A stretch of DNA of 14,139 nt, taken from the IMG/VR virus record IMGVR_UViG_2703718781_000011; one strand, given 5' to 3'. Shown here piece after piece: positions 3,417 through 3,888 of this stretch (positions are counted from its first letter, which is position 1; the number at the start of each line of letters is the position of its first letter). This stretch comes from a virus (lineage: Duplodnaviria > Heunggongvirae > Uroviricota > Caudoviricetes). Under the pieces are notes generated by a model. It made no database searches and had not been told where the DNA came from. It worked only from the letters and a program-made list of their open reading frames with translations. A program made the translations under genes and the position numbers.

Positions 3417-3447
3417 AAAATAAAAACAAAAACCCGCCGAAGCGGGT
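3417..3447 (-). terminator. Rho-independent terminator of the hok transcript
   Basis: Minus strand: stem cccgc/gcggg with ttcg loop followed by UUUUUGUUUUU. Confidence 0.6.
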
Positions 3448-3516
3448 TAAGTGCGGGTGCGTTGAGGATGCCTGACACATCAGAGGTGGCGAGGGATTTC
3501 TCCCCCGCCTGGTCTC

Positions 3517-3672
3517 TTACTCCTCAGGTTCGTAAGCTGTGAAGACAGCGACCTCCGTCTGGCCGGTTCGGATTCGTACCTCGCAGAGGTCTTTCCTCGT
3601 TACCAGTGCCGTCACTATGACGGTTAAACAGATGACGATCAGGGCGATTAACATCGCCTTTTGCTGCTTCAT
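3517..3672 (-). CDS. hokD: Hok/Gef-family type I membrane toxin, 51 aa; an in-frame upstream extension to 3729 gives a 70-codon mok-like ORF
   Basis: Translation MKQQKAMLIALIVICLTVIVTALVTRKDLCEVRIRTGQTEVAVFTAYEPEE matches the HokD/RelF and Gef peptides as I recall them. AAGGAG lies 9 nt upstream of the hok ATG; the upstream in-frame ATG at 3729 has its own GAGG SD. Confidence 0.85.
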   Translation of the reverse strand: MKQQKAMLIALIVICLTVIVTALVTRKDLCEVRIRTGQTEVAVFTAYEPEE

Positions 3673-3825
3673 AGCCTGCTTCTCCTTGACCTTTCGGTCC
3701 GTAAGAGGCAATCTATATGTGACGAGCATATAGGGGCCTCACTTCGATTTATAGTCGGGTGGGGCTTTTATCTATCTGCCGTTGGTGTTCATGCCCGAGG
3801 CAGATAGCCTCAAGCACCCGCAGCA

Positions 3826-3854
3826 ATCCTACTTAACTCTGCCGTTACAGCAAA
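3826..3854 (-). promoter_or_regulatory. Candidate hok promoter (-35 TTTGCT, 17-bp spacer, -10 TAGGAT)
   Basis: Would give an mRNA of about 390 nt ending at the terminator at 3417-3447, matching the roughly 400-nt hok mRNAs of characterised loci (established knowledge). The leader has alternative pairings (ctatctgcc versus ggcagatag). Confidence 0.35.
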
Positions 3855-3864
3855 CCGTTTTCGC

Positions 3865-3888
3865 CCGATATGGGAATTCCCATATCGG
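3865..3888. repeat. Perfect 24-bp palindrome CCGATATGGGAATTCCCATATCGG
   Basis: Seen directly; centred on GAATTC, about 10 bp upstream of the candidate hok -35. Confidence 0.9.

What the first reader, a model, noticed from the sequence alone, without database searches (positions are those of the whole stretch)
3417..3888. Hok-family toxin locus with apparently complete hok-type architecture, not linked to relBE, plus a perfect 24-bp palindrome upstream
The peptide is Hok/Gef-family, closest to HokD/RelF as I recall. In K-12, hokD sits downstream of relBE and is thought to lack its own control elements. Here there is no relBE; instead there is about 330 bp of leader with alternative pairing elements, a plausible promoter giving an mRNA of about 390 nt, and a strong terminator, which is what characterised hok/sok loci look like. 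The upstream reading frame is in frame with hok (70 codons, own SD), not in a separate frame, and I found no out-of-frame mok. A perfect 24-bp palindrome (3865-3888) lies just upstream of the candidate promoter and could be a regulator binding site. Whether a Sok antisense RNA is encoded on the plus strand around 3690-3790 could not be resolved.
Basis: partly seen in the sequence, partly recalled or inferred. Interest (0 to 1): 0.45.

Follow-up and report, generated by a model that had tools for sequence, protein, structure and literature searches.

The report
Intact prophage hokD/sok toxin-antitoxin locus
This is an ordinary, complete hok/mok/sok toxin-antitoxin cassette carried by a lambda-like prophage of enterohaemorrhagic E. 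coli, and the neighbouring 24-bp palindrome is not part of it but a short piece of a palindrome normally found inside phage KilA-N genes.

Summary
Window 3422-3853 (minus strand) is a complete hok/mok/sok type I toxin-antitoxin cassette. The toxin is identical to E. coli HokD. The roughly 395-nt mRNA has the 5'-3' fold-back, ucb and dcb pairings, an in-frame 70-codon mok and a terminator. A Sok-like antisense gene lies on the plus strand at about 3686-3773.

It is not unusual. The window is 100% identical to EHEC "PPompW" prophages. The leader recurs in 3377 of 5426 complete E. coli genomes. Of 80 phage contigs encoding this same peptide, 77 keep the full leader, so K-12's relBE-linked, truncated hokD is the exception. 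In-frame mok is the majority state in this clade and is how K-12 mokC is annotated. The paralogue hokW-sokW has been characterised experimentally.

The palindrome at 3865-3888 is real, but it is absent from 0/32 and 69/80 unbiased hok loci. With 11 flanking bases it matches, 31/33, the inside of KilA-N genes that lie upstream of hok in related prophages. It is most likely a relic, not a hok operator.

Side finding: in KilA-N genes this inverted repeat is kept by compensatory changes, some of which alter the amino acids. Its function is unknown.

The parts
3517..3672 (-). hok CDS (51 aa plus stop), identical to HokD
   Evidence: ORF list. Pfam HOK_GEF 81.6 bits. RefSeq annotation hokD WP_000813254.1 in the 100% identical genome and in K-12.
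3517..3729 (-). mok: 70-codon ORF in frame with hok, sharing its stop codon. Its first 19 codons span the Sok target and the hok Shine-Dalgarno sequence.
   Evidence: Same layout as the annotated K-12 mokC/hokC pair.
3425..3819 (-). Full-length hok mRNA, about 395 nt. The 5' end is inferred by homology; the 3' end is at the terminator T-run.
   Evidence: Rfam RF01794 matches 3670-3819 end to end at 103.9 bits against a gathering score of 59. Alignment with K-12 hokC, hokW and the R1-type hok starts at GGGTGCTTGAGG. The fold is -166.3 kcal/mol with z = -7.1.
3826..3853 (-). Candidate hok promoter: -35 TTGCTG (3853-3848), 16 nt spacer, -10 TAGGAT (3831-3826), 6 nt to +1
   Evidence: Positions. 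The block is conserved in relatives, most of which have TAGAAT at -10. It falls below the threshold of the consensus scan.
3808..3819 (-). tac element (5' end of the mRNA, GGGUGCUUGAGG)
   Evidence: Pairs with fbi in the full-length fold and with ucb in the 3'-shortened RNA.
3757..3767 (-). ucb (AAGCCCCACCC), the anti-Shine-Dalgarno sequence of mok
   Evidence: Pairs with the mok SD region in the full-length fold and with tac in the shortened RNA. A compensatory A-U to G-C change sits at the base of this hairpin in relatives.
3735..3742 (-). mok Shine-Dalgarno region (GUGAGGCC); the mok AUG is at 3729-3727
   Evidence: GAGG is invariant in relatives.
3701..3709 (-). dcb (GCCUCUUAC)
   Evidence: Pairs with the mok SD in the 3'-shortened RNA. 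Nearly invariant in relatives.
3455..3467 (-). fbi (CCUCAACGCACCC), complementary to tac
   Evidence: The complementarity is kept in most of 88 distinct loci, including the compensatory switch between GGGTGC/GCACCC and GGGCGC/GCGCCC.
3422..3448 (-). Intrinsic terminator of the hok mRNA
   Evidence: Terminator scan: 7-bp stem with 5 G-C pairs, followed by TTTGTTTTT.
3686..3714 (+). Candidate Sok promoter: -35 TTGACC (3686-3691), 17 nt spacer, -10 CAATCT (3709-3714)
   Evidence: Aligns with the region just upstream of the annotated K-12 sokC and with the sokW and R1 regions. The block is conserved in relatives. The -10 is weak and the consensus scan does not call it.
3721..3773 (+). Sok-like antisense RNA, about 53-58 nt. 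The 5' tail covers the mok start codon, followed by a hairpin and UUUU.
   Evidence: The start is placed by homology to the annotated 5' end of K-12 sokC, 6 nt before the complement of the mok ATG. The fold is -22.1 kcal/mol with z = -4.3. It has not been shown to be transcribed.
3865..3888 (.). Perfect 24-bp palindrome, centred 57.5 nt upstream of the hok mRNA start
   Evidence: The same element sits at the same distance in 72 of 120 viral-contig hits (6 more at 65 nt) and in 11 of 80 unbiased HokD contigs.
3866..3898 (-). 33-nt stretch (22 of the palindrome's 24 bases plus 11 flanking bases) matching the inside of KilA-N genes; on the plus strand it reads DMGIPISE-stop
   Evidence: 31/33 identity to the KilA-N gene of L050, in the same orientation relative to hok. 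That gene is confirmed as KilA-N by Pfam.

Best explanation
The region is an intact hok/mok/sok type I toxin-antitoxin cassette of the hokD/hokC/hokW clade. It sits in the early-right (nin) region of a lambdoid PPompW-type prophage of EHEC.

Inferred mechanism, by homology with R1 hok/sok and Sp5 hokW-sokW:
1. A weak promoter makes a stable mRNA of about 395 nt.
2. The 5' end of that mRNA (tac) pairs with the 3' fbi element, while ucb sequesters the mok Shine-Dalgarno sequence. The full-length RNA is therefore neither translated nor bound by Sok.
3. Slow 3' trimming removes fbi. Then tac pairs with ucb, and the mok SD pairs with dcb to form the Sok target hairpin.
4. Ribosomes translating mok (here in frame with hok) open the hok start, and the 51-aa membrane toxin is made.
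5. This is prevented when the unstable Sok antisense RNA of about 55 nt (plus strand, about 3721-3773) pairs over the mok start and triggers RNase III cleavage.

By analogy with hokW-sokW, the likely role is to stabilise the prophage and/or help host lysis after induction.

The 24-bp palindrome is not a component of the cassette. It is most likely a 33-nt remnant of a KilA-N gene that occupied the position upstream of hok before module exchange, which here brought in paa.

Shown here: sequence homology, predicted folds, covariation and distribution. Inferred only: transcription of Sok, 3' processing, toxicity in this context and biological role.
For: Identity and context:
- The toxin is identical to HokD and matches Pfam HOK_GEF.
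- The window is 100% identical to EHEC chromosomes and to PPompW phage records, which annotate the gene as gef, "phage maintenance protein".

RNA architecture:
- Rfam RF01794 matches the leader end to end at 103.9 bits.
- The locus is collinear with K-12 hokC/sokC, the Stx2-phage hok locus (taken here as hokW-type) and the R1-type hok/sok from the mRNA 5' end onwards.
- The full-length fold shows tac-fbi and ucb-SDmok pairing, z = -7.1.
- The RNA shortened at its 3' end switches to tac-ucb and SDmok-dcb pairing.
- tac/fbi complementarity is kept, with compensatory changes, across 88 distinct loci.

Sok:
- The Sok hairpin plus U-run folds with z = -4.3.
- The promoter block aligns with the annotated sokC.
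- A compensatory change occurs in the mirrored hairpin.

Literature:
- The hok mRNA switch model (PMC9841398).
- hokW-sokW is an experimentally shown type I toxin-antitoxin system that assists Sp5 release (PMC8621323).

Palindrome:
- Absent upstream of 32/32 hok loci from representative genomes and from 69/80 HokD phage contigs.
- 31/33 match to the interior of a KilA-N gene that lies divergently upstream of hok in related prophages.
Against: - Neither promoter reaches the threshold of the consensus scan.
- The hok -10 is TAGGAT where most relatives have TAGAAT. The Sok -10 is CAATCT, only 2 of 6 consensus positions, although K-12 sokC has the equivalent CACTCT. The locus could therefore be weakly expressed or silent.
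- No transcript, processing or toxicity data exist for this particular locus.
- The literature reports that chromosomal hok loci tested in E. coli did not mediate post-segregational killing.
- The relic reading of the palindrome rests on only 11 extra matching bases. The same 22-mer also occurs without KilA-N flanks in unrelated phage contigs, so it could instead be an independently selected element.
Confidence: 0.85

Rival explanations
1. The cassette is structurally complete but functionally silent, a decaying passenger like the K-12 chromosomal hok loci. Its promoters would be too weak to matter.
For: - The hok -10 is TAGGAT, against TAGAAT in most relatives, and the Sok -10 is CAATCT.
- Neither promoter is called by the promoter scan.
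- The literature notes that chromosomal hok loci failed to give post-segregational killing and that the K-12 loci are inactive (PMC1635323).
Against: - Every RNA element and the ORFs are intact.
- The exact sequence is conserved at 99% or more in over 550 genomes.
- The same Sok promoter variant is shared by 10 distinct sequences, and K-12 sokC carries the equivalent variant.
- The close paralogue hokW-sokW is active.
Confidence: 0.2
2. The palindrome is an operator. A dimeric phage regulator, possibly a KilA-N protein, binds it at -57.5 and controls the hok promoter, or insulates it from upstream transcription.
For: - The distance to the hok start is fixed in every hok-adjacent copy: 47 nt in 72 loci and 65 nt in 6.
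- The identical 22-mer is found in unrelated phage contigs far more often than chance allows, which argues for sequence-specific selection.
- The symmetry is maintained by covariation in KilA-N genes.
Against: - Most hok loci, including the experimentally working hokW-sokW type, lack it.
- The fixed distance is explained by common descent of a single arrangement.
- Copies next to hok tolerate a 1-nt deletion in one arm.
- No KilA-N gene is present in the window.
Confidence: 0.1
3. The 70-aa in-frame product is itself the functional toxin or a distinct protein, rather than mok serving only as a translational coupling device.
For: The in-frame arrangement is the majority state (62 of 88 distinct loci) and extends to Photorhabdus.
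Against: - Close relatives put mok in the +1 frame (68 aa) or the +2 frame (19-aa leader).
- The 19 N-terminal residues are not conserved. Two compensating indels turn PLTDRKV into ASYVPKG while the nucleotides stay conserved. Selection therefore acts on the RNA and the Sok promoter, not on the peptide.
Confidence: 0.07

Closest known systems
hokW-sokW of Sakai prophage 5 (Stx2 phage), E. coli O157:H7
   Same: - A lambdoid-prophage hok/sok cassette in the same genomic neighbourhood type.
- About 86% DNA identity over the cassette to Stx2 converting phage I.
- A 51-aa toxin with the same tac, promoter and coding blocks.
- Experimentally a type I toxin-antitoxin system whose toxin rises after prophage induction (PMC8621323).
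   Different: - The middle of the leader differs. The window has the short ucb/SDmok hairpin, like hokC. The hokW type carries an extra inserted hairpin there.
- The 5' tail of Sok differs at many positions, so cross-regulation is doubtful.
- hokW-type loci lack the upstream palindrome.
hokD (relF) of E. coli K-12, Qin prophage
   Same: - Identical protein.
- 96.9% DNA identity from 14 nt upstream of the ATG through the 3' UTR, fbi and terminator, and on into the downstream rem / DUF968 / Q genes.
   Different: - K-12 lacks everything upstream of window 3686: promoter, tac, ucb, the mok start and the Sok -10 and transcribed region. relBE sits there instead.
- The window shows the undisrupted form.
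hokC/mokC/sokC (gef) of E. coli K-12
   Same: - The same clade.
- mokC is annotated in frame with hokC (69 and 50 aa), with a similar N-terminus (MLNTCRVPLTDRKVKEK against MLVTYRLPLTDRKVKEK).
- The same short leader class and the same Sok promoter variant.
- sokC is annotated at the equivalent position.
   Different: - About 65% identity overall.
- It is chromosomal with an adjacent IS186, not in a prophage.
hok/mok/sok (parB) of plasmid R1
   Same: The same element order (promoter, tac, ucb, mok, dcb, hok, fbi, terminator, antisense Sok) and the same predicted conformational switch.
   Different: - About 51% DNA identity.
- According to PMC8621323, HokW shares 44% identity with R1 Hok.
- Plasmid-borne, with a demonstrated role in post-segregational killing.
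Internal inverted repeat of phage KilA-N genes (not described in the literature searched)
   Same: The window's palindrome plus 11 flanking bases matches it 31/33, in the same orientation relative to hok as in prophages that carry KilA-N upstream of hok.
   Different: In the window there is no KilA-N ORF around it. The plus strand reads DMGIPISE followed by a stop codon.

Membership tests
[quoted passage not shown] | Small hydrophobic Hok/Gef toxin peptide | tested here: met
   Pfam PF01848 at 81.6 bits against a cut-off of 22; identical to HokD WP_000813254.1.
[quoted passage not shown] | Long structured 5' leader homologous to hok mRNA leaders | tested here: met
   Rfam RF01794 covers model positions 1-157 at 103.9 bits against a gathering score of 59, on the hok-sense strand. 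The opposite strand scores only 15.2 bits.
[quoted passage not shown] | 5'-3' fold-back (tac pairing with fbi) in the full-length mRNA | tested here: met
   The minimum-free-energy fold pairs nt 1-12 with CCUCAACGCACCC, z = -7.1. The pairing is conserved with compensatory changes in relatives. This is computational evidence only.
[quoted passage not shown] | Alternative pairings: ucb-SDmok in the full-length RNA; tac-ucb and SDmok-dcb in the 3'-processed RNA | tested here: met
   Folds of nt 1-396 and nt 1-340. The real processing site is unknown, and a 1-355 truncation still folded back on itself.
[quoted passage not shown] | Overlapping mok reading frame whose start lies in the Sok target and which runs across the hok start | tested here: met
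   70-codon ORF at 3517-3729 with a GAGG SD. Translational coupling was not tested.
[quoted passage not shown] | cis-encoded antisense Sok RNA with its own promoter and terminator | tested here: inconclusive
   A hairpin plus U-run is present (z = -4.3), and the position is homologous to the annotated sokC. However, the -10 is weak and the promoter scan does not call it. Transcription has not been shown.
[quoted passage not shown] | Toxicity of Hok, and neutralisation by Sok | not testable with these tools
   Literature only: the HokD peptide is toxic on expression, and sokW neutralises HokW.
K-12-type hokD (relBEF arrangement) | hok immediately downstream of relBE, with the leader truncated | tested here: not met
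   There is no relBE. paa lies upstream and the leader is complete. K-12 homology starts at window 3686.
Palindrome as an intrinsic hok regulatory element | Regular co-occurrence with hok loci | tested here: not met
   Present in 0/32 hok loci from representative genomes, in 11/80 phage contigs with the identical HokD, and absent from the hokW, hokC and R1 loci.
KilA-N internal inverted repeat | Sequence match including flanks, and orientation relative to hok | tested here: met
   31/33 identity, in the same orientation.
KilA-N internal inverted repeat | Location inside an intact KilA-N coding sequence | tested here: not met
   No KilA-N ORF is present in the window. The reading frame stops right after DMGIPISE.

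The most novel reading that the evidence does not exclude
The 22-24-bp palindrome CGATATGGGAATTCCCATATCG may be a functional nucleic-acid element of temperate phages: a hairpin, or the site of a dimeric protein that could be the KilA-N protein itself.

- Inside KilA-N genes it is preserved by compensatory substitutions that even change the encoded amino acids.
- It can be transplanted as a unit to other places.
- The copy centred at -57.5 of the hok promoter would then couple or insulate toxin expression according to phage state, rather than being an inert relic.
Probability: 0.15. Interest if true: 0.6.

Novelty: already known. Interest (0 to 1): 0.22.

Why it matters
For the hok locus itself there is little to gain. 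It documents that the relBE-linked K-12 hokD is a truncated copy of a widespread, complete prophage cassette. It also shows that genome annotation lists only the toxin: no feature is annotated under the leader in any of the 12 hits listed, out of 3377 genomes that carry it.

Two practical points follow. EHEC genomes carry several such cassettes whose Sok target regions differ, so they may act independently. By analogy with hokW-sokW, they may also influence lysis and phage release, including release of Stx phages.

The side observation is the only part that could lead to something new. An inverted repeat inside KilA-N genes is kept by covariation at the cost of amino-acid changes, and it recurs elsewhere in phage genomes.

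Tried and rejected
- Consensus promoter scan of 3350-4050. It found neither the hok nor the Sok promoter, only a site downstream of hok. Promoter positions therefore rest on homology.
- A 3' truncation at nt 355 still folded back through a second partly complementary stretch. Only the 1-340 truncation showed the switch. The true processing site is unknown.
- Two DNA-alignment runs and one batch fold call failed on coordinate or length limits.
- The Fozo 2008 review could not be fetched. Pedersen & Gerdes 1999 is not in the library searched and was seen only as a citation, so statements about K-12 hokD rest on my own alignments.
- Literature searches for the palindrome sequence and for KilA-N plus palindrome found nothing relevant.
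- The Rfam low-threshold scan found nothing over the palindrome.
- A search for a common neighbour gene at the palindrome copies that are in neither hok nor KilA-N contexts found none. They lie after a capsid gene, after an AAA_25 protein gene, near an integrase gene and inside unannotated ORFs.
- Attempts to place two such contigs (L072, L025) among known phages found no match.
- The idea that the palindrome is a by-product of protein constraint. The amino-acid sequence alone already gives 8-9 of 12 pairs, so this is partly true. It does not explain the covariation at synonymous third positions or the swapped residues.
- Two further KilA-N scans, meant to reach more distant relatives, mostly returned the same E. 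coli-type genes.

Full report
**What is at the coordinates**

On the minus strand, 3517-3672 encodes MKQQKAMLIALIVICLTVIVTALVTRKDLCEVRIRTGQTEVAVFTAYEPEE. This matches Pfam HOK_GEF at 81.6 bits. It is the very protein RefSeq names HokD, WP_000813254.1, both in a 100% identical EHEC chromosome and in a K-12 strain.

The 70-codon ORF at 3517-3729 is in frame with hok. The palindrome CCGATATGGGAATTCCCATATCGG sits exactly at 3865-3888 and is the only 24-bp zero-gap perfect palindrome in the window. A terminator lies at 3448-3431.

The 5' UTR is 147 nt.

**Context**

The window is a lambdoid prophage. In the identical genome the gene order is: cI/cro-like regulators, YdaT, replication genes, DUF1627, a fimbrial pseudogene, paa, hokD, two small ORFs, DUF968, RusA, Q and two tRNA genes. 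A DicF RNA lies further along the window.

GenBank phage records with 100% identity call the element "PPompW" and the gene "gef: phage maintenance protein".

In K-12 (Qin prophage) the same protein lies behind relBE. DNA homology to the window begins only at 3686, 14 nt before the ATG, and continues through the 3' UTR into rem, DUF968 and Q. K-12 hokD is therefore a truncated copy of the arrangement seen here.

**Architecture**

Rfam's "sok" model (RF01794) matches 3670-3819 end to end at 103.9 bits. The match is on the hok-sense strand and ends at the hok AUG; the opposite strand scores only 15.2 bits. The hit therefore certifies the hok leader, not the antisense RNA.

The locus is collinear with K-12 hokC/sokC, a Stx2-phage hok locus (taken here as hokW-type) and an R1-type hok/sok from GGGTGCTTGAGG (3819) onwards.

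Folding results:
- The RNA from 3819 to 3424 folds at -166.3 kcal/mol (z = -7.1). Nucleotides 1-12 pair with CCUCAACGCACCC (3467-3455), and AAGCCCC pairs across the mok GAGG.
- An RNA lacking the last 56 nt refolds. The 5' end then pairs with AAGCCCC, and the mok SD pairs with GCCUC at 3709-3705.

This is the tac/fbi, ucb and dcb switch described for R1 (PMC9841398).

Across 88 distinct homologous loci the 5'-3' complementarity is kept, including GGGTGC/GCACCC changing to GGGCGC/GCGCCC.

The candidate promoter is TTGCTG-16-TAGGAT, 6 nt before 3819. Most relatives have TAGAAT at -10.

**Sok**

On the plus strand, TTGACC (3686-3691), a 17-nt spacer and CAATCT (3709-3714) align with the region just upstream of the annotated K-12 sokC. 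The sokC 5' end lies 6 nt before the complement of the mok ATG, which places the start here at about G3721.

The RNA has a 5' tail of about 9 nt, a strong hairpin and UUUU (-22.1 kcal/mol, z = -4.3). The hairpin is the mirror image of the ucb/SDmok hairpin and shows a compensatory A-U to G-C change in relatives.

The -10 is poor and the consensus scan does not call it. Transcription is inferred, not shown.

**mok in frame**

Among the 88 distinct loci:
- 62 have mok in frame with hok (mostly 70 and 51 aa).
- About 10 use the +1 frame (mostly 68 aa).
- About 9 use the +2 frame, giving a 19-aa leader.

K-12 mokC and hokC share the same stop codon.

The 19 extra residues are not conserved. A 1-nt deletion in the Sok -10 together with a 1-nt insertion near the -35 turns ASYVPKG into PLTDRKV while the nucleotides stay similar. 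The frame relation is therefore incidental, and the in-frame state is not a novelty.

**How common it is**

- The leader plus promoter has close matches in 3377 of 5426 complete E. coli genomes; none of the 12 listed hits has an annotated feature under it.
- O157 genomes hold up to 6-10 hok-like places.
- Of 80 viral contigs encoding the identical peptide, 66 have a full leader without the palindrome, with at least ten different upstream junctions. Another 11 have a full leader with the palindrome. Only 3 have a truncated leader, and 2 of those carry the K-12 relE junction.
- The literature already reports hok enrichment in prophages and HokD toxicity. It also shows that hokW-sokW of Sp5 is a working type I system that assists phage release.

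**The palindrome**

Other hok loci in this clade begin their homology about 3 nt downstream of the palindrome. None of 32 hok loci from representative genomes has such a palindrome within 700 nt.

The 20-nt core has at least 120 exact hits in viral contigs:
- 78 lie 47 or 65 nt upstream of a hok 5' end.
- About 25 lie inside KilA-N genes, where the core encodes DMGIPIS.
- About 15 lie elsewhere.

In some prophages a 257-aa KilA-N gene (Pfam 94.5 bits) lies divergently upstream of hok and contains the palindrome. Window 3866-3898 matches that gene 31/33, in the same orientation. On the plus strand it reads DMGIPISE-stop, where the gene reads DMGIPISELIQSF.

The simplest reading is a short relic left by module exchange. 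A function at the hok promoter cannot be excluded but has no support.

**Side finding**

KilA-N homologues retrieved without using the motif keep an inverted repeat centred on GGGAATTCCC, with different arms in different lineages:
- CGATATGGG...
- CGATGCGGG...
- TCGAAACGGG...
- GGTCCATGGG...
- GAGGTCTATGGG...

Each arm is matched by its complement. The changes alter amino acids (M/I, A/A, T/V, and D..S swapped to S..D) and involve synonymous third positions.

On 28 distinct sequences:
- 9 of 12 pairs show double-sided changes.
- The covariation score is 0.284, against 0.089 or less for the slid controls.
- 0 of 500 shuffles reach the observed score.
- Single changes concentrate in the central four bases.

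The amino-acid sequence alone already gives 8-9 of 12 pairs, so protein and nucleic-acid constraints are entangled. I could not tell an RNA hairpin from a DNA site, and I found no description of this repeat in the literature searched.

**Verdict**

This is a correctly observed but ordinary locus: a complete, already catalogued hok/mok/sok cassette in an EHEC prophage. The palindrome is real but is not a hok element. The only open question worth pursuing is what the KilA-N palindrome does.

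Noticed in passing
L263-L353 (KilA-N genes in viral contigs); same sequence at window 3865-3888: KilA-N genes carry an inverted repeat centred on GGGAATTCCC over the codons for ..DMGIPIS... It is kept perfect in divergent homologues by compensatory changes that alter amino acids and synonymous sites. 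9 of 12 pairs have double-sided changes, and 0/500 shuffles reach the observed score. Its function is unknown, and I found no description of it in the literature searched.
   Followed up: yes
L010, L019, L025, L027, L034, L035, L042, L071, L072, L085, L100, L122: The exact 20-22-mer CGATATGGGAATTCCCATATCG also occurs outside hok and KilA-N contexts, in phage contigs with 40-66% G+C. It often lies just after a stop codon (capsid gene in L025, AAA_25 gene in L019). It occurs twice in one ORF of L072 and between iteron-like repeats in L019. There is no common neighbour gene, and L072 and L025 have no match to known phages.
   Followed up: partly
L103 about 3107-3427: One KilA-N gene has the palindrome-encoding motif duplicated in tandem (DMGIPIPGISSLKSDMGIPIS), giving two adjacent palindromes.
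   Followed up: no
window 3686-3729 and homologues: Two compensating 1-nt indels, one in the Sok -10 and one near the Sok -35, shift the mok frame locally (ASYVPKG against PLTDRKV) while keeping mok in frame with hok. The mok peptide itself is therefore not conserved.
   Followed up: partly
window 3673-3853 in RefSeq E. coli genomes: The listed matches to the hok leader (12 shown, from 3377 matching genomes) carry no annotated feature. mok and sok appear to be unannotated outside curated K-12.
   Followed up: no
window 3427-3508 (-): The hok 3' UTR, including fbi and the terminator, gives a weak match to Rfam isrK, a Salmonella sRNA that binds Hfq. The score is 24.9 bits, E = 0.003, well below the gathering score of 50.
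   Followed up: no
window 3531-3534 (-): The Tyr47 codon of hok lies in a UACG context. A preprint states that hokD mRNA, like hokB, is recoded Tyr to Cys by TadA A-to-I editing. Not examined further.
   Followed up: no
window 10936-10987 (+): DicF antisense sRNA, Rfam 76.7 bits with the full model covered. This is consistent with a Qin-like dicBF region in this prophage.
   Followed up: no
window 147-220 and 314-386 (-): Two tRNA genes downstream of the Q antiterminator gene. The identical genome annotates tRNA-Ile and tRNA-Arg in this position.
   Followed up: no
window 4931-4958: A perfect inverted repeat with 12-bp arms and a 4-nt spacer (ATGTTGATTACA....TGTAATCAACAT), about 165-190 nt upstream of the paa start. 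It lies beside a frameshifted fimbrial pseudogene.
   Followed up: no
window 3949-4001 (-): Downstream of paa there is a terminator-like hairpin (4001-3988; the motif with its T-run spans 4001-3976) followed by a second G+C-rich hairpin, GGATGCCGCGCCAGCGGCATGTAGG. A 39-nt stretch here (about 3912-3950, overlapping only the hairpin's edge) also matches a plasmid region next to an IS21-family fragment.
   Followed up: no
window 3379-3408 (-): A promoter-like site, TTGAAG-18-TAGAAT, lies just after the hok terminator and upstream of the 86-aa rem-like ORF (3039-3299). It is the only sigma-70 consensus match in 3350-4050.
   Followed up: no
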